Of a stretch of DNA of 64,000 nucleotides, positions 4,571 through 31,494 are shown in pieces. Each line of letters starts with the position of its first letter. Position 1 is the stretch's first letter. The notes below the pieces were generated by a model. It saw nothing but the letters and a program-made list of their open reading frames with translations, did no database searches and was not told where the DNA came from. This DNA is from Dictyostelium discoideum (Eukaryota): NCBI GenBank assembly GCA_000004695.1, contig CM000150.2:4544001-4608000 (forward strand). Reading direction: 5' to 3'. Position numbers and translations under genes: made by a program.

Positions 4571-5655
4571 TCCAAACCTATTTTTAAATTATTCAATCAC
4601 ATCATAGTATACTTTTAAATACGAATTATTGAAAAAGAGCATGGAATTTCATAATTTTCCAATTTTAATTTTGGATATTGATTAGTTATTTTATTAAATA
4701 ATCCAATATAATATTTTAATAAATTTAAATTTTTTAAGTGAAACGAAATTAAATATTTTTTATTACATAATAATTGAGGAAATTCTTAACAAAGGAAATC
4801 CAACATTTCAATTGACCTTGATATTAATAATGGGAAATGATATGAGCGGTTAATTGTAGTGGGAATATTTTTAAAATAATCATTATTATCATTTCCATTT
4901 TCACCTTTTAATTTATTAATAAAATGTTTAAATAATTTAACACTATCGAAACCAACTAAACAAAAAAATAAAAACCAAATATTTAATTTCTTATTTTTAT
5001 TAATTTCTTTATTTTTAATCCCATCAATTGCTAAATCAATAAAATTAATTTGTTTTTTTAAATCATTTTTACAATTTGAAAATAATTAATGATTTTTAAT
5101 TTCTGTTTTATTTTTAGAATCTTCATACATAATGGTATGAAGATTCTAAAAATGGTTTATAAGATATATTATATCTGATTTATTTGTTGATAGCATTGTT
5201 AATTTTAAAAAAAGATCTTTATTTAATGAAATAAAGTATCCCAAATTTCATAGGTTTTCACAGTTGGTTCTATTAATTTAATTAATTGTTCAATTACTTG
5301 TATTGAATCACTTTCAATTGCTTTATTTAAAAATCTTTGGTTAAATATTCATGCTTGTAAAAAAGAAAAGTAATAATGGAAAAAAATAAGAATAAAGACC
5401 AATGTTCAATTTGTAAATATTAATAAACTTTTTTTTATTTTTATTTTTTTTTTAAATATATAATTTTATTTTATTTTTTTATTTTATTTTTTAAAAAAAA
5501 AAAAATATTTAAAGAAAAATAAATAAAAAAATATAAAAATTAATTTAAACTTTACTAAAATATGGAAAATTCGATTAGAATCGAATTATAAAATAATATA
5601 TTTAAAAAATACAATTATAAACCGAAAAAAGATAGGTTTTAGTGAGGGCACTTTT

Positions 5656-7608
5656 TTTTTTTTTTTTTTTTTTAATATTGGATTAACAAGATTGATATAT
5701 GTCCATCTGTGTTAATACGAGTTTTATTTAATATTTATTTAAAGGCTTATCATTTAAGCTGAAGGGTTATTTTAATCATATGAATTGATCAAAAGATATA
5801 ATATTTGGGAGAGATGATTCTGTAATACAATAGTAATTAGCTGTTGTTTTTCTTAGCTTGATCGTTGAAGTGAGAAGGATCTTAGGATCTTTGAAGTTAT
5901 TATGGTCTTTTGCTGATAAGTTTTTCAGATCTTTTGCTTTTTTGATGTATTCTAGAGTGGCCAATTTGTGCCATTTCTTTAGAAGGGAGCTGTATGATAG
6001 TGATTCATCTGTTAAAGGATCTTCACTGTATATTTGATTGCAAATCCAAATCCAAATGTTGTGGAGGATAAGGGCCATTAGGTTTCTATATGCGAATGAT
6101 CTGGTTAGATCATAGTCTATTGCTTTATAGTTCCATTCAAAGTATTCTTTGTGGAATCTGTGGTTGGCGTAATCTGCATTCACTTCTTGATCTTTTTTGG
6201 CTGTCGGTGATAATTTTGGAGTTATTCTATTAATGAAATTGTTATTTTGCCTAATTCTTGTATGGTGCCAGTTTTTACCTTTGCCTGTGGTAATATAGAT
6301 GAAATTTTTGAGTTTATTTATTTTTATGAATTGTTTTGTTTTCTTGCATGAGAAGAACAGGTGACCGTATGGGTCTTTGCTCATATCTTCTTTGCAGAGT
6401 GGGCATTGTTTGTTGTGAAGGTAGTTTATTGGAAGGCATCTGGCATGGAATCTAAACATTGTGTCTCTTGTTTTAGGGTCTTTTATCTTCAGTATGTTGT
6501 TGAAGAGTTGATTATAGCTGTAGCCTCTTAAGTTTAGAGATGATTGGAATTCCGTTTTAGGGATGGTTGGATTTTGGTCTTGAATTGTGGTATACCATTC
6601 TGCCAGTGAAAGTGGTTGTCCATTTTCGTTTTTTATGGATGTGAGATTATTGTTGAAGATTGCTTTTTTTATTCTTATTTTGTTCCATTCGTCTAAGTTT
6701 TCTTTTAGGTATCTGGATGTGAATTTGTTTTTTTGGATCTGATATTCCCAGCTTTTGTGATGAGATGAGTTTGTTTGTTTGGTTTCTAGTGCTAGGATGA
6801 ACTGGTTTATGATCCAAAGTTTCTGCGCCAGTTGTCTCAATTCTATATTCCAAATGTTCCAGCCCCCTACTTTTAGTGGGTATCTTGCTCTTTTGGTTCT
6901 CATTAAATTAATAACTTGAAATCCACTAGCATTTTTGTTGTTTGGTGCCGATAAAAACCATTCGACTAATTTATTGATTTGGTTTAATTCCTCTTCATTA
7001 AAATTCTCTACATATGAATAGTAGGTTAATTTAGAGAGTGCGAATGCTTTGAGGATGTTGGTTTTGGTTTTGATTGTTGAGTCAGTGGTTTTCCATAGTA
7101 CTAAGGATGATCTTATTGTGTTTAATATTTCTGGCATTTTTCTTGTTATCCCTTTGCCTGTGAAGAAGTATCCCAAGTATCTTTCTGGATTTGTAGATAT
7201 TGGAATTCTTTGGTTGGTATTGTCTGGGTTGCCTATAAGAATTGATGAAGATTTGTCGATGTTTAGTTTTGAGGAAGTGGCTTTGCAAAATGAATTGAAG
7301 TGTTGTAGTACTAATTCAAGTTGTTGAGAGTCTGGGACCATTGAAGCCGAGTCGTCTGCAAAGCTTTGGAATTTCTCTCTGTGGTTGCTGTTGTTTAGAG
7401 GAAGGCCAGTAATTAGGTCATCTTGTAAAATTTTTCTAGCTAAAGCCTCTATTACAAGGACGAACAGGGTGGGTGATAGTGGATCTCCTTGTTTAACTCC
7501 TCTTTTGATCTCAAAGGGTATAGTAGTTCTACCATTAATTTCAATTCTTGCATCAGATTTGGTGAGTAGATTCATTATCAGGTTGATTATATTGGTTGGA
7601 ATGTTGTC
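5656..7608 (-). mobile_element. 5'-truncated non-LTR (TRE-type, tRNA-gene-targeted) retrotransposon copy, about 1.95 kb, flanked by a 17-bp target-site duplication
   Basis: The minus-strand ORF 5776..7575 (599 aa) has reverse-transcriptase motifs (GVKQGDPLSPTLF ... SFADDSA) and a C-terminal Cys/His motif (CPLCKEDMSKDPYGHLFFSC) typical of a non-LTR ORF2. The element ends in a poly(A) tract (T-run 5656-5673 on the + strand). The direct repeat ttagtgagggcactttt occurs at 5639-5655 and 7609-7625. The insertion site is about 90-105 bp from the 3' end of the tRNA-Ile gene at 7714. Confidence 0.8.
5776..7575 (-). CDS. Retrotransposon ORF2 fragment (reverse transcriptase plus C-terminal zinc-finger-like domain), N-terminally truncated
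   Basis: RT motifs and a CCHC-like C-terminus. No endonuclease domain upstream, because the element is 5'-truncated at 7608. Confidence 0.8.
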   Translation of the reverse strand: MNLLTKSDARIEINGRTTIPFEIKRGVKQGDPLSPTLFVLVIEALARKILQDDLITGLPLNNSNHREKFQSFADDSASMVPDSQQLELVLQHFNSFCKATSSKLNIDKSSSILIGNPDNTNQRIPISTNPERYLGYFFTGKGITRKMPEILNTIRSSLVLWKTTDSTIKTKTNILKAFALSKLTYYSYVENFNEEELNQINKLVEWFLSAPNNKNASGFQVINLMRTKRARYPLKVGGWNIWNIELRQLAQKLWIINQFILALETKQTNSSHHKSWEYQIQKNKFTSRYLKENLDEWNKIRIKKAIFNNNLTSIKNENGQPLSLAEWYTTIQDQNPTIPKTEFQSSLNLRGYSYNQLFNNILKIKDPKTRDTMFRFHARCLPINYLHNKQCPLCKEDMSKDPYGHLFFSCKKTKQFIKINKLKNFIYITTGKGKNWHHTRIRQNNNFINRITPKLSPTAKKDQEVNADYANHRFHKEYFEWNYKAIDYDLTRSFAYRNLMALILHNIWIWICNQIYSEDPLTDESLSYSSLLKKWHKLATLEYIKKAKDLKNLSAKDHNNFKDPKILLTSTIKLRKTTANYYCITESSLPNIISFDQFI

Positions 7609-7665
7609 TTAGTGAGGGCACTTTTAAAGTTGGTTATAATTCTAATTCATTCTGATTCCTCTTCT

Positions 7666-7678
7666 GGGAATTGAACCC
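7666..7678 (-). promoter_or_regulatory. External B box (ex-B) downstream of the tRNA-Ile gene
   Basis: The + strand reads gggaattgaaccc, which is GGGTTCAATTCCC on the tRNA strand and matches the pol III B-box consensus GGTTCGANTCC. It lies 36 bp past the tRNA 3' end. The same element is conserved at the second tRNA-Ile copy (18369-18381). Confidence 0.6.
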
Positions 7679-7713
7679 TTAATCTAGTTTTCAAATGCCT
7701 TAAAAAGGATCTG

Positions 7714-7786
7714 TGCTCGATGCAGGGATCGAACCTGCGACCGTGGCGTTATTAGCACCACGCTCTGCCGACTGAGCTAATCGAGC
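7714..7786 (-). tRNA. tRNA-Ile (anticodon AAT/AAU), 73 nt, no encoded CCA
   Basis: The reverse complement GCTCGATTAGCTCAGTCGGCAGAGCGTGGTGCTAATAACGCCACGGTCGCAGGTTCGATCCCTGCATCGAGCA folds as a cloverleaf. It has a 7-bp acceptor stem GCTCGAT/ATCGAGC, a D arm GCTC/GAGC, an anticodon stem TGGTG/CGCCA with loop CTAATAA, and a T arm GCAGG-TTCGATC-CCTGC. Confidence 0.9.
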
Positions 7787-7799
7787 ATCCGTGAAAAAA

Positions 7800-8460
7800 A
7801 AAATTAAAATTGGCCAAAAAATGGGTAATTTTTTTAGGGGAAGATGAGACTTCAGAACATATATTCTTCAACTGCAAAGCCCACATCAAAAACACACAAG
7901 AAATCTTCAACTACACCTTAACCAAGTGTGGACACACCACTCACACCTGGAATTTTAAGATTTTAAAACATCCACAAATTGCACTAATAGCCAATTTAAT
8001 AGCTATTATATTCGAAAAAATCTGGCACAAAAGAAACAAACTCATCCACGATGAAATAGAAATAATAATTCATAGACCAAAAGTCATACGTGAACTAATT
8101 AAAACACAAAGAGCTGCATGGGAGAGGACACAAGCGGTTATAAACAAAACATTAAGAATCAAATCAAAGCAACGGCAAGAAGAACAAAATAAATTAGACT
8201 CATTAATCTCGCTAAAGCTATTACAATTTAGCAGACAACGGAACTCACATCTTCACGCAATAGCACTTCCCAAACATCAATCATGAAGCTGATGATAAAA
8301 TAAAAAAAGATTTAGAAAAAAATTTGGACAAAAAAGATGTTTTAATCAAAAGTAATAATACAATTCGAAATTCGAAACAAAAAAAAAAAAAAAAAATAAA
8401 GTAAACTGACCCCTCTTTTAGAGACCCTGTAAAAAAAAAAAAAAAAAAAACTAAAAATAA
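7800..8460 (+). mobile_element. Severely 5'-truncated remnant of a second TRE-like non-LTR retrotransposon (ORF2 C-terminal region plus A-rich tails), head-to-head with the tRNA-Ile gene
   Basis: ORF 7810..8286 (no genuine start) encodes ...EHIFFNCKAHIKNTQEIF...IAIIFEKIWHKRNKLIH.... This parallels the C-terminal HLFFSCKKTKQF...ALILHNIWIWICNQIY domain of the 5776..7575 ORF2. Oligo(A) tracts follow at 8385-8400 and 8437-8460. It begins within about 20-50 bp of the tRNA 5' end. The family assignment is inferred. Confidence 0.45.
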
Positions 8461-8794
8461 AATGAGATCTGGCATCTCAAGGAGAAGCAACTAATAATTG
8501 CGTTATCCAATTCAAAAAAAAAAAAGGTAATTTTTTTATGTTGGATTCATGAAATGACCAATTATTTTCGATATTGTTAGTCATTTGGTTTGCAGACTTA
8601 TTAAAAGAACTAACAAAATAAGTTGGTGAAAATGTGTCCTGATGATTAGAGTTCACTACTCGAGAGTTGTAACCAAAAGAAAATAAAATAAAACCCCATC
8701 TATAATTAAATGTGTTTTAGCTTTTATCTTTTGATTGATTGATTTTAAAATAACAACCTCACTTTTACAAGTTTGTTGGGTTTTATTTTAAAAT

Positions 8795-9078: not shown

Positions 9079-9462
9079 CTAGATACTTACATTACCATCA
9101 ATATCGTTAGAAGCATAACAGCTACTACTCCAATGAGAACCACGACCACATCTAAAACAACAATTACTTTCGTTGTAACTTGATTTATGGACTTGTTCAT
9201 GAATATTTTTTTTGAGTACAACTAAATTACTATATCTATTATCAGATGTATCTTTATTAATATGGTGGACCACTTCATTAGCGTATAACTCTCTGCCAAC
9301 TTTTCTTTGACCAACTGTACGATGAGTAAATTTCCAACTTTTACTATTTTCATCATAGTATTTACGATAACCACTTGGATTAATATAAATTTTTAAATCT
9401 CTTGGTCGTTGTTGTTGTTTTTGTCTTTGCTCTTTTTTATTGTTGTAATTGTTTTTTAACAT
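9079..9462 (-). CDS. Small intronless ORF (127 aa) with an HNH_3-like endonuclease motif followed by a CCHC zinc knuckle
   Basis: The segment ...GYRKYYDENSKSWKFTHRTVGQRKVGRELYANEVVHHINKDTSDNRYSNLVVLKKNIHEQVH has the His-His...Asn...Asn-Leu...His...His spacing of phage-type HNH nucleases. It is followed by CFRCGRGSHWSSSC, a CX2CX4HX4C zinc knuckle. Confidence 0.55.
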   Translation of the reverse strand: MLKNNYNNKKEQRQKQQQRPRDLKIYINPSGYRKYYDENSKSWKFTHRTVGQRKVGRELYANEVVHHINKDTSDNRYSNLVVLKKNIHEQVHKSSYNESNCCFRCGRGSHWSSSCYASNDIDGNVSI

Positions 9463-17757: not shown

Positions 17758-18368
17758 ATTGATAATAGTTATTTTAATTATTTTAATACAATTTTCAATA
17801 CATTATATAAAAAAAAATAAATAAATCCTTAATTGGTTTTGTTTTGTTTTGTAATAATCCTTATTTTTTTTATTTATTTTTATACATATATTTTTATTTT
17901 TTTTTTTTAAAAGAATCTAGTTTTCCTCTAATCCTTCTAATCATGGATATGGCGCAGGTAAATGAGCTCTTGCAATTCCCAATTCACCAATAAATTACCC
18001 AAAAAAAAAAAAAATTTCATTTTTTTTAACATTGATTAATTAGTATCCATTAAAGGAAATAGTTTTAAATTTTTATTTTTTTTAAATGAAAAGAAATTAT
18101 TCCTTTTTCAATTTGAGTTTTCAAATGAGGAGTTTTAAAATATAGTTATTATTTTTATTCAGTTTTTTAATATGTTAGTATTTAAAATTAATTAACTAAA
18201 TAAGTCAAATAATAAGATGAATTGGTCAAAGGATTCTTATAAGATTTGGCTTTTATAAAATACTCAGAGCCAACCACACAATTCAAAAAAAATCAATGGA
18301 GACTTTTCCAATAACAAAACATATACCCACTTAAAATGGTAGTTTGGTTAATTTCGATTTAGCTATAT

Positions 18369-18381
18369 GGGAATTGAACCC
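18369..18381 (-). promoter_or_regulatory. External B box downstream of the second tRNA-Ile copy
   Basis: The same gggaattgaaccc element as at 7666-7678. It lies 34 bp past the tRNA 3' end, and the flanking ...cttaat... and aaaaagga..gtgctcg context is also conserved. Confidence 0.6.
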
Positions 18382-18414
18382 TTAATATCGTTTCCTTTAA
18401 TTAAAAAGGATGTG

Positions 18415-18487
18415 TGCTCGATGCAGGGATCGAACCTGCGACCGTGGCGTTATTAGCACCACGCTCTGCCGACTGAGCTAATCGAGC
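18415..18487 (-). tRNA. tRNA-Ile (AAT), second copy
   Basis: Identical over its 73 nt to the gene at 7714..7786. The immediate 5' flank (atccgt.gaaaaaaaaatta) and the ex-B-containing 3' flank are also conserved. Confidence 0.9.
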
Positions 18488-18740
18488 ATCCGTTGAAAAA
18501 AAAATTATTTTATCCAAAAAAGTGCGAACTATTTTTTACAACAAAAGGAAAAAATAAGCAGGAAAAACTCAACCGTAACTATTCTGGTGAATTTATTAAA
18601 ATTTAATAAATTGAAGAAATTCCAGCAACAAGAATATTGCAAATTTATATTTTCAAAAAATCGATACGATAAATTTTAAATTTTATTTTTTTTTTTTTTT
18701 TTAAGTGTAAATTTAGTTAATTGAGGTTTTTTTTTTTTTT

Positions 18741-26907: not shown

Positions 26908-29900
26908 TTAGAATAAACCAGAAACTTTTTTCTTTTCAGTTTTTTTCCAAGCTGGTAAAGCATCCCATTCAGCTCTACTACCAAGATGTTTTTCAAAATC
27001 TTCATCACTAAGATACATTTCTAAAACTGAACGATCAATTTCAGGAGGTGTATTCTTTTCAATTAATTTTTCAAATGGTAAAACTTGATAATATTTCTTT
27101 AGTAGATTAACAGCATTCTTTGGTGATGCACCATCATCAAGTTCATCAGCACCATCAGCAGTATTATTTGAAGAACCATTGCTGTTGTTGTTGTTGTTGT
27201 TGCTGTTGTTAAGTCTTAAAGAATCCCAACAATGGAAATAACAAGTGAAAGAAAGTGGTTCATCACCTTGAGTAATGAATAAAACATCATTTTCAGTTCT
27301 AGAATCAGCTAAATATTTTACATAATCAATTGCAATTTCCATACCTCTCTTTTTTTCTTTTTCTTGTGCTCTTAAACCTGACCAAACGAAAACATTCTTT
27401 CTATTATCCAATAGATAGACTTTACTTGGAGTTAAATCATATTGACTGAAACGATAGATTTCATCAGCTCTAATAATGGTACCAGTATTTACGATTGCAA
27501 ATAATTTAATTTGATTTTCCCAATCAGTTGGTACATTTTGATAAACATAATCAAAGTTTGCATATTTACCATTTCCACCAATTAATTTCCAAAATTCGTC
27601 AGGTTCTGAACCTTCTTTAATGACTTTAATGATTGGATTAGTTTTTGATTTTGAAATACTATTTGAAAGTGAAGCTAATTTTGATGATTCCTCTTTCAAT
27701 TGTTTATTTGAACCTTTAGATTCCCAAATAAAAGTTTGATTTGTTGAACAATTGGTAATGATGAAACAATCTCTACTATTTAAACAAGTTGAAGAAAGTT
27801 TACTGGTTTGTGAAGCAGTGATTGCATTTGATTTTTTACCAAAAACATGATACATTCTAGTGGTATTATTATTGAATTGGTAAGTGGTTCTATCACCTTT
27901 ATGAACAACCATTTTACCATTGAAAATCATATTGAAATGATTGGTTTCTCTACCTTGTCTTTCAGGATCTTGAGAACATTCACCACGAGCACTAGTTTCA
28001 ATATAAAGATCTTTTGAGAGTAATGAAGATGAACCAACGTCTTGACGAGATGCATCAGCACCTTGCCAATAGTAAATTGCATATTTGAGTGCATTCCATT
28101 TGGTGTAGGTATATCTAATCAAATAACAACAACCACTAAAGAAATGACCATACTCTTCCTTTGGTAAAGGATAGGATTTACAATTTTCAATATACCAAAT
28201 CTCATACTCACCACTACCATCACTTTTGAGTACTTCTTCAGCTCTTTCAATTTCAACCATTTCTCTAACTTGGAATTGATTCATCTTTGCAGGTGATTTC
28301 TTTTCATAGGGAATTGAAACATCAAATACTCTCTTCTTACCAAAACCCATTCTTTGTAGGGAAACTTCATGTGAAAGATCTGGCCAATCAAAGAATTTCT
28401 CTCTAAATAATACAGTTTCACCACCTTCTGATAATACAACTGATTCAACCCATGATTGTCTATGTTGATTATTCTTTAAACGTTCTTGACATTTCTTATG
28501 GAATTGTTCCTTTAATGATTGATCGGAATTTCTACCTGACCATTCATAGAACTCACTAACAGTATCCAATACATAGAAACCATCAGACTCTAATAATTCC
28601 ATTGATAATGATTTAGTATCAATATGAATTAATTGATCTTTATCAGTTAAATACTTCAATAGTGTGAATGATGATGCCCAATTTAATTCCGCTTCTAAAT
28701 CATCACCACCATCTGGATTAATAGTAGATTTATGTGATGAACCTCCACCAATACGTTTATAAAATAATTCATTTTCATCACCTTCATCCAATTTAATTAT
28801 TGTAGCATGACCACCTCTTTCGTGAGATTTAATGATTTCTGCAATTGCAACTGCTTTGGCTTTCTTATTGGCAGTTGATTTTGAGCCATACCAAGTGAAA
28901 ATGGTAGAATGTGAATTACTATCAACTGATTCACCACCAACATTTGAATTTTCAATACCACAATCTAAAACGAATGCATCCATTTTATTCAATGAATTTA
29001 TTGAGATTTCAACCTCTTTGGTTAAAATTCTCTTTTTACCTTTACAATGAACTAATCTTGCTCTTAGGCCTGAATAAGTATCAATACTCTTTTTATGATT
29101 TAAAAATTTATTTGGATCTTGTTTCAATGTTGATGTGACTGATACAGATTGTGATCTACCTCTAACGAAATTTGGTGCTGCAGGTTCATCCTTTAAAACA
29201 TTTGATAAAAGTTTATTATTTTCAATTTCCATTTTCTTTTTTTGTGCTTCCATTGCCAATGATGCCATTGACCCCATTATTCCACCGACTGCACCAGGTG
29301 GTAATACAATTTTCTTTTTAGTAGTTGGAGATGATTCATTATTTTTATTACTTTCTAATGCTTTTGATAATAATGATGGTTGTTGATCACTACCCACATC
29401 ATCATCACCACCACCATTTGAAGTTGAAGTTGAACCTGGTGCTTTATGACTTTTACTTGGTGCTTGTCTACCTTTCATTTTAACTCTATCTTTAGTTAAT
29501 GATGTTAAAGTTGATGTTGATCCATCACTACTACTATTATCTTCAGTAACTTGTACTGGTTTCTTTTTATTTTCTAATTGACTTTGAAGTTGTTTTTCAA
29601 TTGATAATTTAAATTGATCAGTTATTGTGGATGATTTTGTTTCTTTTTCAATAGATTTTGAAATTTTCTCTCTTTCTAAACGATCTCTTTCTTCTTTTTC
29701 TGCAAATTCTCTTTCTTGTTTTAATTTTAATTCTTTTTCTTTTTGTTCTTTTTCTAATTTTAATTTAAATTCTTTTTCTTTTTTATCTTTTTCTTCTTTT
29801 TCTTTTGTAACTTTATCAGCCAATTCTTTATCTTTTTTCTCTTTTTCTAATTTATCAGCCAATTCTTTCTCTTTTCTTTCTTTTTCTTCTTTTTCTTTTG

Positions 29901-31494
29901 CAAGTTTATCAGCCAATTCTTTATCTTGTTTCTCTTTTTCTAATTTATCAGCCAATTCTTTCTCTTTTCTTTGTTTTTCTTCTTTTTCTTTTTGTTCCTT
30001 TTCAAGCTTATCAGCCAATTCTTTATCTTGTTTCTCTTTTTCTAATTTATCTGCTAATTCTTTCTCTTTTTTCTCTTTCTCTAATTTATCAGTTAATTCT
30101 TTTTCAAGTTTTTCTTTTTCAAGCTTTTCTGCCAATTCTTTTTCTTCCAATTCTTTTTTCTCTTTCTCTAAACGTTCTTTTTCAAGTTTTTCTGTTTCTG
30201 CTGCTGCTGCTGCTGCTGCTAATTCTTTATCTTTTCTTTCTTTTTCTTCTTTTTCTTGTTTCTCTTTTTCTTCTTTTTCTTCTTTTTCTTCTTTTTCTTT
30301 TTGTTCTTTTGCAAGTTTATCAGCCAATTCTTTTTCTTGTTTTTCTTTTTCTAATTTTTCAAGTGATTCTTTTTCTTGTTTTTCTTTTTCCAATTTATCA
30401 GCCAATTCTTTTTCTTGTTTTTCTTTTTCTAATTTATCAGCCAATTCTTTCTCTTGACGTTCTTTTTCTAATTTATCAGCCAATTCTTTCTCTTCTTTTT
30501 CCTTTTGTTCTTTTGCAAGTTTATCAGCCAATTCTTTCTCTTGACGTTCTTTTTCTTCTTTTTCCTTTTGTTCTTTTTCAAGTTTATCAGCCAATTCTTT
30601 CTCTTTCTCTAATTTCTCAGCCAACTCTTTTTCTTGAGATTCTTTTTCAAGTTTATCAGCCAATTCTTTTTCTTCTTTATCTTTTTTTTCTTTATCTAAA
30701 CGTTCCTTTTCAAGTTTATCAGCCAATTCTTTTTCTTCTTTTTCTTTTTTCTCCTTTTCAAGTTTATCAGCCAACTCTTTCTCTTGACGTTCTTTCTCTA
30801 ATTTATCAGCCAATTCTTTTTCTTCTTTTTCTTTTTTATCAGTTAATTCTTTTTCTATTCTCTCTTTTTCTTCTTTTTCTAATTTTTCATTTTCTTCTTG
30901 TTTTAATTTTTCAATTTTTTCAGAATCTTTTTTATCTAATAAATCTTGAAGTTTTCTTTGTTCTTCTTCTTGTTGTAATCTTCTTTCTTCTTTTCTTTTT
31001 TCACGTTCTTCTCTAATTTTTTGTTGTTCCAATTCTAATTTTTTAGCTTCCTCTTCCAATTCTTTTCTTCTTTTCTCTCTTTCTTCTTTGGCTGAAATTG
31101 CTTGTGCTGATAATAATGAAGTTGATGAATCACCACCACTATTCTCAGAGATTGAATAAGATGATGTTGATGGTGATAATGCTATACTACTACTACCACT
31201 TGTGGGAGTTTTTGGCGATGTTATTCTATTTGCTTTATCAGACTCTAATTTCTCCATCTCTTCCTTTAGAATCTTTTCATCTTCCTCACGTTTCTTTCTT
31301 CTCTCTTCACGTTCTTTTTGTTTTTTTAATCTTTCTTCTTCATCTTTTTTCTCTTGTTCCGCTGCTAATCTTTGTTGTTCTTCACGTGCTTTCTTTCTTT
31401 CTTCATTTCTTTTCTCTCTTTCTTGTGCTTCCTTTTCTAATTCTAAACTTTGTTGTTTTAAATCCTCTAATCTTTTTTTTCTTTCTTCATCCAT
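26908..31494 (-). CDS. Villin/gelsolin-family protein with a C-terminal villin headpiece and a very long E/K-rich repeat (coiled-coil) N-terminal half; 1528 aa
   Basis: The C-terminus ...LSDEDFEKHLGSRAEWDALPAWKKTEKKKVSGLF is a canonical villin headpiece. Upstream gelsolin-type segments carry the FWKLIGG, LLDNRKNVFVWSGL and LNSRDCFII motifs. The N-terminal about 700 aa are dominated by repeats of KELADKLEKE(K/R)QEKE encoded by a 30-nt DNA periodicity at about 29700-30900, with a poly-Ala (gct)7 insertion. Confidence 0.8.
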   Translation of the reverse strand: MDEERKKRLEDLKQQSLELEKEAQEREKRNEERKKAREEQQRLAAEQEKKDEEERLKKQKEREERRKKREEDEKILKEEMEKLESDKANRITSPKTPTSGSSSIALSPSTSSYSISENSGGDSSTSLLSAQAISAKEEREKRRKELEEEAKKLELEQQKIREEREKRKEERRLQQEEEQRKLQDLLDKKDSEKIEKLKQEENEKLEKEEKERIEKELTDKKEKEEKELADKLEKERQEKELADKLEKEKKEKEEKELADKLEKERLDKEKKDKEEKELADKLEKESQEKELAEKLEKEKELADKLEKEQKEKEEKERQEKELADKLAKEQKEKEEKELADKLEKERQEKELADKLEKEKQEKELADKLEKEKQEKESLEKLEKEKQEKELADKLAKEQKEKEEKEEKEEKEKQEKEEKERKDKELAAAAAAAETEKLEKERLEKEKKELEEKELAEKLEKEKLEKELTDKLEKEKKEKELADKLEKEKQDKELADKLEKEQKEKEEKQRKEKELADKLEKEKQDKELADKLAKEKEEKERKEKELADKLEKEKKDKELADKVTKEKEEKDKKEKEFKLKLEKEQKEKELKLKQEREFAEKEERDRLEREKISKSIEKETKSSTITDQFKLSIEKQLQSQLENKKKPVQVTEDNSSSDGSTSTLTSLTKDRVKMKGRQAPSKSHKAPGSTSTSNGGGDDDVGSDQQPSLLSKALESNKNNESSPTTKKKIVLPPGAVGGIMGSMASLAMEAQKKKMEIENNKLLSNVLKDEPAAPNFVRGRSQSVSVTSTLKQDPNKFLNHKKSIDTYSGLRARLVHCKGKKRILTKEVEISINSLNKMDAFVLDCGIENSNVGGESVDSNSHSTIFTWYGSKSTANKKAKAVAIAEIIKSHERGGHATIIKLDEGDENELFYKRIGGGSSHKSTINPDGGDDLEAELNWASSFTLLKYLTDKDQLIHIDTKSLSMELLESDGFYVLDTVSEFYEWSGRNSDQSLKEQFHKKCQERLKNNQHRQSWVESVVLSEGGETVLFREKFFDWPDLSHEVSLQRMGFGKKRVFDVSIPYEKKSPAKMNQFQVREMVEIERAEEVLKSDGSGEYEIWYIENCKSYPLPKEEYGHFFSGCCYLIRYTYTKWNALKYAIYYWQGADASRQDVGSSSLLSKDLYIETSARGECSQDPERQGRETNHFNMIFNGKMVVHKGDRTTYQFNNNTTRMYHVFGKKSNAITASQTSKLSSTCLNSRDCFIITNCSTNQTFIWESKGSNKQLKEESSKLASLSNSISKSKTNPIIKVIKEGSEPDEFWKLIGGNGKYANFDYVYQNVPTDWENQIKLFAIVNTGTIIRADEIYRFSQYDLTPSKVYLLDNRKNVFVWSGLRAQEKEKKRGMEIAIDYVKYLADSRTENDVLFITQGDEPLSFTCYFHCWDSLRLNNSNNNNNNSNGSSNNTADGADELDDGASPKNAVNLLKKYYQVLPFEKLIEKNTPPEIDRSVLEMYLSDEDFEKHLGSRAEWDALPAWKKTEKKKVSGLF

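What the first reader, a model, noticed from the sequence alone, without database searches (positions are those of the whole stretch)
5639..7625. tRNA-gene-targeted non-LTR retrotransposon insertion with an intact 17-bp target-site duplication downstream of tRNA-Ile
A 5'-truncated ORF2 (RT plus CCHC-like C-terminus) with a 3' poly(A) tract is bracketed by the direct repeat ttagtgagggcactttt (5639-5655 and 7609-7625). Removing the element and one repeat copy reconstitutes an empty site about 90-105 bp downstream of the tRNA-Ile gene, just past its external B box. This is the behaviour described for Dictyostelium TRE elements, which integrate at fixed distances from tRNA genes. The exact subfamily (TRE3 versus TRE5) cannot be assigned from sequence alone. 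The orientation is notable: the 5'-truncated end faces the tRNA.
Basis: partly seen in the sequence, partly recalled or inferred. Interest (0 to 1): 0.5.

Follow-up and report, generated by a model that had tools for sequence, protein, structure and literature searches.

The report
Truncated TRE3 retrotransposon behind tRNA-Ile
This is an ordinary, already well-described event: a dead, 5'-truncated copy of the Dictyostelium tRNA-gene-targeting retrotransposon TRE3 (most likely TRE3-A). It sits in its textbook position about 100 bp behind a tRNA-Ile gene and is flanked by a clean 17-bp target-site duplication.

Summary
On the minus strand, 1,933 bp of element body (5674-7606) is followed by an A18 tail (5656-5673). 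Both lie between two exact copies of TTAGTGAGGGCACTTTT (5639-5655 and 7609-7625), the only two matches in the window, with none expected by chance. The window is D. discoideum chromosome 1, and the ORF is DDB_G0270770. The copy is 99.5% identical to the last 1.9 kb of a roughly 5.2-kb non-LTR element. That element has ORF1, a -1-frame overlap, and an ORF2 with endonuclease, RT and CCHC regions. The repeat is flanking DNA, not part of the element. The target lies 88-104 nt past tRNA-Ile(AAU), 41 nt past its external B box, in the same orientation as the tRNA. That orientation is the published TRE3 rule, so it is canonical, not notable. Four full-length D. citrinum copies also lie closely downstream of same-strand tRNA genes. 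A length of 5,228-5,229 bp matches the published TRE3-A consensus (5,229), not TRE3-B (5,279). No named reference sequence could be aligned, so I put TRE3-A at about 0.75. No exact empty allele was found. A TRE5-A fragment with its own 13-bp duplication lies 50 bp upstream of the same tRNA. Verdict: already known, low interest.

The parts
5639..5655 (.). Target-site duplication, copy distal to the tRNA (TTAGTGAGGGCACTTTT). It abuts the poly(A) tail.
   Evidence: (family D2). Its last four T are ambiguous with the tail, so the duplication is 13-17 bp.
5656..5673 (-). Poly(A) tail, A18. It reads as a T-run on the + strand.
   Evidence: Full-length copies end ...CCAATATT(T) followed by an A-run at the same point.
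5674..5775 (-). 3' UTR of the element (102 bp).
   Evidence: Collinear with the 3' ends of the L001 and L004 copies.
5776..7606 (-). 5'-truncated ORF2 remnant, 610 codons plus the stop at 5776-5778. It corresponds to aa 451-1059 of the annotated 1059-aa ORF2, which is about aa 653-1261 of the full open frame. The ATG-initiated part, 5776-7575, is gene model DDB_G0270770.
   Evidence: 100% identity to DDB_G0270770. DNA identity to D. discoideum full-length copies is 99.5%.
7168..7599 (-). C-terminal half of the reverse-transcriptase domain, including the FADD box. The N-terminal half of the domain is missing.
   Evidence: Pfam RVT_1, E=1.9e-11, profile positions 97-203 of 205. The full domain is present in the full-length ORF2 at aa 551-798.
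6346..6405 (-). CCHC zinc-knuckle-like motif, CPLCKEDMSKDPYGHLFFSC.
   Evidence: Translations. The motif appears in the family consensus CPxCxExMxNDPYGHLFFxC. The TRE5-A fragment carries the homologous ...HIFFNC.
7607..7608 (-). Two filler bases at the 5' junction ('ga' on the minus strand). They belong neither to the duplication nor to the element.
   Evidence: Junction compared with L001 (two copies) and L004.
7609..7625 (.). Target-site duplication, copy proximal to the tRNA.
7667..7677 (-). External B box, GGTTCAATTCC. It starts 36 nt past the tRNA 3' end and ends 41 nt before the target site.
   Evidence: The same motif lies downstream of the second tRNA-Ile in the window and in the orthologous loci L008 and L009.
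7702..7706 (-). T5 run on the tRNA strand, read as the RNA polymerase III terminator of the tRNA gene.
   Evidence: Read. The function is inferred from general knowledge of pol III termination.
7713..7786 (-). Targeted tRNA-Ile(AAU) gene. Its internal B box GGTTCGATCCC is at 7725-7735.
   Evidence: ARAGORN and the B-box scan.

Best explanation
The feature is a dead-on-arrival, 5'-truncated copy of the D. discoideum non-LTR (L1-clade) retrotransposon TRE3, most likely subfamily TRE3-A (formerly Tdd-3).

Proposed mechanism:
1. A TRE3 ribonucleoprotein was directed to the region downstream of an RNA polymerase III-bound tRNA-Ile(AAU) gene. The insertion point is about 100 bp past the internal B box and about 40 bp past the external B box.
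2. The element's AP-type endonuclease nicked the + strand at ...CACTTTT|AAAG.
3. The T-rich 3' end annealed to the RNA poly(A) tail and primed reverse transcription (target-primed reverse transcription).
4. Synthesis stopped, or the template was lost, after 1,933 nt, inside the RT-coding region.
5. The second strand was cut 17 nt away. Two untemplated bases were added at the 5' junction, and repair produced the 17-bp duplication.

The copy lacks the 5' UTR, ORF1, the endonuclease and half of the RT domain, so it cannot move by itself.

What is shown: the element's identity and anatomy, its truncation point, the duplication, and its position and orientation relative to the tRNA and the B boxes. 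What is inferred: the order of nicks, the priming step, and the role of TFIIIC/B-box recognition. These rest on established L1/TPRT biology and the TRE literature.
For: Anatomy of the window copy:
- Element body, A18 tail, exact 17-bp duplication and two filler bases.
- The window ORF is 100% identical to DDB_G0270770 of D. discoideum AX4 chromosome 1.
- The copy is 99.3% identical in protein and 99.5% in DNA to the 3' 1.9 kb of full-length copies.

Anatomy of full-length relatives:
- ORF1 of 416-417 aa. The ORF2 open frame is 1261 aa and overlaps ORF1 by 82 nt in the -1 frame.
- Exo_endo_phos matches aa 36-280 (weak, E=0.0014, but covers the whole profile). RVT_1 matches aa 551-798.
- This is the endonuclease-RT-zinc-finger layout and -1 frameshift described for TRE3-A (PMC5911963).

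Position and orientation:
- The target lies 88-104 nt downstream of the tRNA in the same orientation.
- Published values are 40-150 bp in the same orientation and 14-228 bp for TRE3-A (PMC5006619 Table 1).

Family behaviour:
- All four full-length D. citrinum copies lie closely downstream of same-strand tRNA genes.
- In D. discoideum strain ACTFIW, a different TRE3 subfamily (67% aa identity) is inserted, 5'-truncated, within the same 17-bp window behind the orthologous tRNA-Ile.

Subfamily:
- Element length without the tail is 5,228-5,229 bp in L006 and about 5,221 bp plus a 5' A-run in L001.
- Published consensus lengths are TRE3-A 5,229, TRE3-B 5,279 and TRE3-C 4,734.
- This is also the most populous TRE3-like protein cluster recovered, with 79 members.

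Nick site: the inferred site TTTT/AAAG resembles the L1 endonuclease preference TTTT/AA (my own knowledge).
Against: - No named TRE3-A, -B, -C or -D reference sequence could be obtained, so the subfamily rests on length, ORF arrangement and abundance. A consensus that included a long tail could blur the 50-bp difference between A and B.
- dictyBase's only TRE3 label that I could reach, DDB_G0291686 = 'TRE3-B ORF2', could not be tied to any sequence.
- No exact unoccupied allele was found. The closest assembly (99.4% identical, L002) carries the same insertion.
- The unoccupied allele in strain ACTFIR (L008) has diverged just left of the target, so the duplicated 17-mer is not seen as a single copy anywhere.
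- The nick-site preference is not uniform across the other copies inspected.
Confidence: 0.93

Rival explanations
1. The mechanism is the same, but the element is TRE3-B or another TRE3 subfamily rather than TRE3-A.
For: No named reference was aligned. The second TRE3-like family in AX4-like genomes (P0007/P0008, 42-44% identity) could not be measured cleanly for length, because its L003 copy has about 1.1 kb of extra sequence. The A/B length test therefore has only one arm. Cluster 1 contains DDB_G0291620, whose identifier is numerically close to DDB_G0291686. The latter is labelled TRE3-B ORF2 in dictyBase.
Against: The measured body length of 5,221-5,229 bp fits 5,229 and misses 5,279 by about 50 bp. 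The -1 overlap of ORF1 and ORF2 is as described for TRE3-A. The family has the most gene models, in line with TRE3-A being the most abundant TRE3.
Confidence: 0.2
2. A full-length TRE3 inserted here and was later shortened by a deletion or by recombination. On this view the truncation is secondary, not a product of incomplete reverse transcription.
For: TRE clusters and tandem arrays at tRNA genes are common (L001, L007, L009; PMC5006619 Table S2 note). Rearrangements near tRNA genes therefore do occur.
Against: An exact 17-bp duplication directly brackets the truncated copy, with only two filler bases at the 5' junction. A later deletion removing 3.3 kb of the element would have to end precisely at the original junction to preserve this. 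5' truncation with an intact duplication is the normal outcome of TPRT (established L1 biology).
Confidence: 0.03
3. The element landed near the tRNA gene by chance, so the proximity to the tRNA is coincidental rather than targeted.
For: A single locus cannot by itself prove targeting. The genome is gene-dense, with tRNA genes every few tens of kb (two in this 64-kb window).
Against: All five independent copies examined (this one plus four in D. citrinum) lie closely downstream of a same-strand tRNA gene. A different TRE3 hit the same 17-bp window in another strain. Published genome-wide counts put 60 of 67 TRE3-A copies 14-228 bp downstream of tRNA genes.
Confidence: 0.02

Closest known systems
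TRE3-A (formerly Tdd-3), D. discoideum tRNA gene-targeted non-LTR retrotransposon of the L1 clade
   Same: - Two-ORF architecture with a -1 overlap, and ORF2 with endonuclease, RT and CCHC regions.
- Oligo(A) tail and variable target-site duplication.
- Insertion about 100 bp downstream of a tRNA gene in the same transcriptional orientation, past the external B box.
- Full-length size of 5,229 bp.
   Different: Nothing differs in kind. This copy is 5'-truncated to the last 1.93 kb and is therefore non-autonomous. Identity to a named TRE3-A reference sequence was not tested directly.
TRE3-B, -C and -D (sister subfamilies)
   Same: The same targeting rule (downstream of tRNA genes) and the same ORF2 domain order.
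   Different: Published consensus lengths of 5,279 and 4,734 bp do not fit the family measured here. The other TRE3-like ORF2 families recovered are only 37-44% identical to this copy. Which of them is B, C or D was not established.
TRE5-A (formerly DRE)
   Same: A related L1-clade element with a homologous CCHC region. It also targets tRNA genes, and a fragment of it flanks the same tRNA-Ile.
   Different: TRE5 inserts about 50 bp upstream of tRNA genes in the opposite orientation and has a modular A/B/C UTR structure. The finding's element sits downstream in the same orientation. The two fragments are unrelated at the sequence level: the TRE5 fragment gave no tblastn hit with TRE3 proteins.
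Human/mouse LINE-1 5'-truncated insertions
   Same: Target-primed reverse transcription, a T-rich/A nick site, a poly(A) tail, 5' truncation, a 7-20-bp duplication, and occasional untemplated bases at the 5' junction.
   Different: LINE-1 has no tRNA-gene targeting. TRE3 adds position specificity relative to pol III transcription complexes.
Skipper-2 (the LTR retrotransposon found downstream of Dictyostelium tRNA genes)
   Same: It occupies the same genomic niche downstream of tRNA genes.
   Different: It is an LTR/integrase element. Here there are no LTRs, there is a poly(A) tail, and the RT is of LINE type.

Membership tests
TRE3 (tRNA gene-targeted retroelements, 3' type) | Integration downstream of a tRNA gene: about 100 bp, with published ranges of 40-150 bp and 14-228 bp for TRE3-A. 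| tested here: met
   The target site lies 88-104 nt past the 3' end of tRNA-Ile. Ranges are from PMC5911963 and PMC5006619.
TRE3 (tRNA gene-targeted retroelements, 3' type) | Same transcriptional orientation as the targeted tRNA gene. | tested here: met
   The element and tRNA-Ile are both on the minus strand, with the element 5' end facing the tRNA 3' end. The same holds for all four D. citrinum copies.
TRE3 (tRNA gene-targeted retroelements, 3' type) | Non-LTR structure: two ORFs, ORF2 with AP endonuclease, RT and zinc finger, short UTRs and a poly(A) tail. | tested here: met
   Full-length relatives have ORF1 of 416-417 aa and an ORF2 frame of 1261 aa with Exo_endo_phos (weak, full-length coverage) and RVT_1. 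The window copy retains the C-terminal half of RT, the CCHC motif, the 3' UTR and A18.
TRE3 (tRNA gene-targeted retroelements, 3' type) | ORF2 clusters phylogenetically with the TRE3 reference sequences rather than with TRE5. | not testable with these tools
   No named TRE3 reference sequences were retrievable. The supplement figures are images, and Glockner 2001, Marschalek 1990 and Winckler 2011 are not held. As a proxy, the family's other copies behave as TRE3.
TRE3 (tRNA gene-targeted retroelements, 3' type) | The family as a whole is associated with tRNA genes. | tested here: met
   Four of four retrieved full-length copies lie downstream of same-strand tRNA-Ser, -Leu, -Arg and -Lys genes. 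The sample is small.
TRE3-A subfamily | Consensus length of 5,229 bp (TRE3-B is 5,279 and TRE3-C is 4,734). | tested here: met
   L006 measures 5,228-5,229 bp from the base after the duplication to the base before the tail. L001 measures about 5,221 bp plus a 5' A-run.
TRE3-A subfamily | ORF2 is reached by a -1 frameshift from ORF1. | tested here: met
   An 82-nt overlap with ORF2 in the -1 frame is present in all five full-length copies, as described in PMC5911963. Whether TRE3-B differs in this respect is unknown to me.
TRE3-A subfamily | High nucleotide identity to the deposited TRE3-A consensus. | not testable with these tools
   No reference sequence was available in any collection I could search.
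TRE5 | Integration about 50 bp upstream of a tRNA gene in the opposite orientation. | tested here: not met
   The finding's element is downstream and co-oriented. The neighbouring fragment at 7837-8525 does meet this rule.
Non-targeted Dictyostelium elements (DDT, Tdd-4, DIRS-1, Skipper-1) | DNA-transposon, tyrosine-recombinase or LTR/integrase architecture, with no association to tRNA genes. | tested here: not met
   The element has a LINE-type RT, a poly(A) tail and no terminal repeats. All close homologues are RVT_1-only non-LTR ORF2 proteins.

The most novel reading that the evidence does not exclude
The orthologous tRNA-Ile locus may have been hit independently by two different TRE3 subfamilies in two D. 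discoideum lineages, AX4 and ACTFIW. The 5' junctions would fall within the same 17-bp window, 1-8 nt apart. That would suggest TRE3 integration is set by a near-nucleotide-precise ruler from the B-box/TFIIIC complex. If so, natural strain variation could be used to map that ruler.
Probability: 0.3. Interest if true: 0.3.

Novelty: already known. Interest (0 to 1): 0.1.

Why it matters
It matters little beyond annotation.

- The locus is a clean, textbook example of TRE3 target-primed integration in the reference genome. The duplication, tail, filler bases, truncation point and both B boxes are all readable.
- Gene model DDB_G0270770 ('hypothetical protein' in GenBank, 'reverse transcriptase domain-containing protein' in UniProt) is better read as a retrotransposon remnant than as a host gene.
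- The same tRNA-Ile also carries a TRE5-A fragment upstream. It therefore appears to belong to the 13% of D. discoideum tRNA genes reported as targeted from both sides (PMC5006619).
- The comparison across strains hints at recurrent use of the same few nucleotides. That is consistent with, but adds little to, the known position specificity.

Tried and rejected
1. Named reference sequences for TRE3-A to -D and TRE5-A to -C were not obtainable.
   - The alignment figures in the Spaller 2016 supplement are images with no text.
   - Glockner 2001, Marschalek 1990 and Winckler 2011 are not held.
   - Full-text searches for the gene identifiers and for 'TRE3-A ORF2' gave nothing usable.
   - The G3 2025 supplement does not list these genes.
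   - Protein names in the database are all 'hypothetical protein'.
2. I tried to measure a second TRE3 family's length to complete the A-versus-B test. The only locus, L003 (P0007), has about 1.1 kb of extra sequence between the endonuclease and RT regions, an unclear 5' end and no tRNA nearby. The result is inconclusive.
3. I looked for an exact empty site in other strains, using the neighbouring uae1 gene as anchor.
   - L002 carries the same insertion.
   - L008 (ACTFIR) is unoccupied but diverged at and to the left of the target.
   - L009 (ACTFIW) is occupied by other TRE3 copies.
   - L010 and L012 (D. cf. discoideum) are diverged.
   - L011 (D. citrinum) is not syntenic.
   - The 12-nt core of the duplication occurs only in L002.
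4. The first BLAST of the locus against these loci was swamped by low-complexity hits and had to be redone with filtering.
5. I rejected a uniform TTTT/A nick-site rule for this family, because the other copies' junctions do not all fit it.
6. An Rfam scan of an odd short element in L007 found only the adjacent tRNA-Lys.
Full report
**What is in the sequence**

- tRNA: ARAGORN finds tRNA-Ile(AAT) at 7713-7786 on the minus strand.
- Direct repeat: direct reading shows TTAGTGAGGGCACTTTT at 5639-5655 and again at 7609-7625.
  - These are the only two matches in the 64-kb window even with two mismatches allowed. None appeared in 100 dinucleotide-preserving shuffles.
  - For one fixed pair of positions the match probability is about 2e-11 at this base composition.
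- Tail: immediately right of the first copy there is a run of T. Counting the four T that belong to the repeat, the run is 22 long (5652-5673). This leaves an A18 tail on the minus strand.
- ORF: the minus strand is open for 610 codons from the junction to a stop at 5776-5778.
  - Pfam RVT_1 matches only profile positions 97-203 of 205.
  - A CCHC motif, CPLC-x10-H-x4-C, is encoded at 6346-6405.

**Provenance**

- The ATG-initiated part of the ORF (599 aa) is 100% identical to DDB_G0270770 of Dictyostelium discoideum AX4, on the 4.92-Mb chromosome 1.
- The neighbours are uae1 (ubiquitin-activating enzyme E1) and the ABP-120/filamin gene.
- A second D. discoideum assembly, GCA_054883475.1, is 99.4% identical over 16 kb and carries the same insertion.

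**What the element is**

- The fragment is 99% identical to residues 451-1059 of a 1059-aa ORF2 whose 90%-identity cluster has 79 members.
- At the DNA level, window 7606-5652 is 99.5% identical to the 3' 1.95 kb of two tandem full-length copies in D. discoideum (L001). It is 94.7% identical to four full-length copies in D. citrinum (L004-L007).
- Full-length copies have an ORF1 of 416-417 aa. Their ORF2 open frame is 1261 aa and overlaps ORF1 by 82 nt in the -1 frame.
- That ORF2 has a weak but full-length Exo_endo_phos match at aa 36-280 and a complete RVT_1 match at aa 551-798.
- This is the endonuclease-RT-zinc-finger layout, with a -1 frameshift and oligo(A) tail, described for TRE3-A (PMC5911963).
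- The window copy starts at about residue 653 of that frame, inside the RT domain. It lacks about 3.3 kb: the 5' UTR, ORF1, the endonuclease and half of the RT domain.

**Is the repeat flanking DNA or part of the element?**

The junctions were compared base by base.

- On the minus strand the window reads ...AACTTT-AAAAGTGCCCTCACTAA-GA-CAACATTCCAACC....
- The full-length copies read ...CACTACAACACAT-CAACATTCCAACC... at the same point.
- Homology therefore begins at 7606. The 17-mer is absent from the element, and two bases (7607-7608) belong to neither.
- At the 3' end all copies finish ...CCAATATT(T) followed by an A-run.

The repeat is a genuine target-site duplication of 13-17 bp, with the uncertainty coming from the four T/A shared with the tail.

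**Position relative to the tRNA**

- The internal B box GGTTCGATCCC is at 7735..7725 and an external B box GGTTCAATTCC at 7677..7667. A T5 run at 7702-7706 on the tRNA strand is the likely pol III terminator.
- The target lies 88-104 nt past the tRNA 3' end. That is 41 nt past the external B box and 99 nt past the internal one.
- The element and the tRNA share the same orientation.
- Published rules:
[quoted passage not shown] They can use either the internal or the external B box as reference (PMC5911963).
  - Dd_TRE3-A copies lie 14-228 bp downstream (PMC5006619 Table 1).

**Does the family behave as TRE3 elsewhere?**

- All four D. citrinum full-length copies have a same-strand tRNA gene (Ser, Leu, Arg, Lys) closely upstream of the element 5' end.
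  - Three lie about 100-140 nt from the tRNA.
  - In the fourth, a short related element sits first, about 70 nt from the tRNA, with the full-length copy in tandem behind it.
  - Their duplications are of variable length, about 9-17 bp.
- Tandem arrays such as L001 are a known consequence of repeated targeting (PMC5006619 Table S2 note).

**Subfamily**

I could not obtain named reference sequences.

The indirect evidence favours TRE3-A:
- From the first base after the duplication to the last base before the tail, L006 measures 5,228-5,229 bp. L001 measures about 5,221 bp plus a 5' A-run.
- The published consensus lengths are 5,229 for TRE3-A, 5,279 for TRE3-B and 4,734 for TRE3-C.
- The -1 ORF overlap matches the description of TRE3-A.
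- This is the most populous TRE3-like protein family recovered.

The other TRE3-like ORF2 families in AX4-like genomes are only 37-44% identical. My attempt to measure one of them was inconclusive. I put TRE3-A at about 0.75 and TRE3 overall at above 0.9.

**Empty site**

I retrieved orthologous loci from other assemblies, using the neighbouring uae1 gene as anchor.

- **ACTFIR (L008):** this D. discoideum strain has the tRNA-Ile with its external B box but no TRE3 or TRE5 sequence at all.
  - The flanks that are 2.6 kb apart in the window are 56 bp apart there.
  - Sequence homology runs from the last four T of the duplication rightwards. The G-rich part of the 17-mer and the 630 bp to its left have no counterpart.
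  - This is an unoccupied allele but not an exact pre-insertion allele.
- **ACTFIW (L009):** this strain carries a 5'-truncated copy of a different TRE3 subfamily (67% aa and 68% nt identity, against 87% in the flanks), plus a second short fragment.
  - Its 5' junction falls inside the same 17-bp window.
  - This looks like an independent hit on the same spot, consistent with position-specific integration.
- **Others:** the two D. cf. discoideum assemblies are too diverged, and D. citrinum is not syntenic here.

**Mechanism**

The anatomy is that of target-primed reverse transcription.

- The + strand of the reconstructed target reads ...GCACTTTT|AAAGTTGG....
- A nick at this point would leave a T-rich 3' end able to pair with the poly(A) tail. 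This resembles the TTTT/AA preference of L1-type endonucleases (my own knowledge).
- The second nick, 17 nt away, accounts for the duplication.
- Premature termination of cDNA synthesis accounts for the truncation with an intact duplication. The two extra bases are typical 5'-junction filler.
- The targeting step itself, presumably recognition of the TFIIIC/B-box complex, is inferred from the literature and not shown here. For TRE3 it has not been worked out experimentally (PMC5006619).

**Other side of the tRNA**

- Window 7837-8525 (+) is the C-terminal end of an ORF2 plus a 3' UTR ending in A12. It is flanked by GGTAATTTTTTTA at 7824-7836 and 8526-8538. These are the only two matches in the window, and no shuffle gave two.
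- Its protein is 92% identical to DDB_G0276495. dictyBase labels that gene 'TRE5-A ORF2' according to PMC12405889 Table 3.
- It starts 50 nt upstream of the tRNA 5' end, in the opposite orientation. This is the TRE5 rule.
- This tRNA-Ile is thus occupied on both sides, as reported for 13% of D. discoideum tRNA genes.

**Verdict**

The subfamily is narrowed to TRE3 and probably TRE3-A. The 'notable orientation' is corrected to canonical. The feature is a known kind of element at an annotated locus in a reference genome, so novelty is nil and interest low.

Noticed in passing
window 7824-8538 (+): A 5'-truncated TRE5-A fragment (7837-8525) consisting of the ORF2 C-terminus with ...HIFFNC, a 3' UTR and A12. 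It is flanked by a 13-bp duplication, GGTAATTTTTTTA (7824-7836 and 8526-8538). It starts 50 nt upstream of the same tRNA-Ile in the opposite orientation. It is 92% identical to DDB_G0276495, which dictyBase labels 'TRE5-A ORF2'. The tRNA is therefore occupied on both sides.
   Followed up: yes
window 18414-18487 (-), flanks 18300-18560: A second copy of tRNA-Ile(AAU), apparently identical by eye to the first. It has its own external B box (GGGAATTGAACCC on the + strand, about 18369-18381). No TRE3-family homology was detected there. Upstream TRE5 content was judged only by eye. It may serve as an unoccupied paralogous target within the same window.
   Followed up: partly
L009 14906-15796 (D. 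discoideum strain ACTFIW, orthologous tRNA-Ile locus): A different TRE3 subfamily (67% aa identity to the window copy), 5'-truncated, plus a second short 3' fragment with its own A-tail. Both lie behind the orthologous tRNA-Ile, and the 5' junction falls within the same 17-bp window used in AX4. This looks like an independent recurrent hit. The duplications were not resolved.
   Followed up: partly
L008 14776-14831 versus window 5007-5638: The roughly 630 bp immediately left of the target site in AX4 has no counterpart in strains ACTFIR and ACTFIW. Part of it (5166-5339) is present in the D. cf. discoideum assemblies. It is AT-rich and contains a 17-bp perfect hairpin around 5112-5150. Its origin is unexplained; it could be an older insertion or a lineage-specific deletion.
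   Followed up: no
L007 4805-5058 (D. citrinum): A short element (about 250 bp) between tRNA-Lys and a full-length TRE3. It begins like the TRE3 5' end (CTCAAAAAACCGTACC). It then has a G-rich, tRNA-like stretch ending ...GGTTCGAGTCTTGGTCTCACCA. It ends with a TRE3-like tail and poly(A). It may be a non-autonomous or chimeric retroelement mobilised by TRE3. Rfam finds nothing in it.
   Followed up: partly
window 9079-9462 (-): A small gene whose product carries HNH_3 and zf-CCHC_5 domains (Pfam marks in the orthologous gene calls). It lies between the tRNA-Ile and the filamin gene and is conserved in position in the D. discoideum and D. cf. discoideum strains where the region was recovered (L002, L008, L009, L012). 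An HNH-endonuclease-like gene in this position is unusual.
   Followed up: no
L010 17542-21196 (D. cf. discoideum ACTFIY): A Ty3/gypsy-type LTR retrotransposon (rve, RVT_1 and Ty3_capsid marks) lies upstream of the orthologous tRNA-Ile, between the tRNA and a TRE5-like fragment. This fits what is published for DGLT-A-type targeting upstream of tRNA genes.
   Followed up: no
window 29812-30802: A dense array of repeated 17-mers (for example TTTATCAGCCAATTCTT, recurring at spacings that include 39 bp). It turned up in the k-mer control for the duplication and is probably a tandem-repeat coding region.
   Followed up: no
L003 5191-6325 (D. discoideum GCA_054883475.1): A copy of a second TRE3-like family (P0007, 44% identical) has about 1.1 kb of extra sequence between its endonuclease and RT regions. 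ARAGORN detects no tRNA gene within 6 kb of it.
   Followed up: partly
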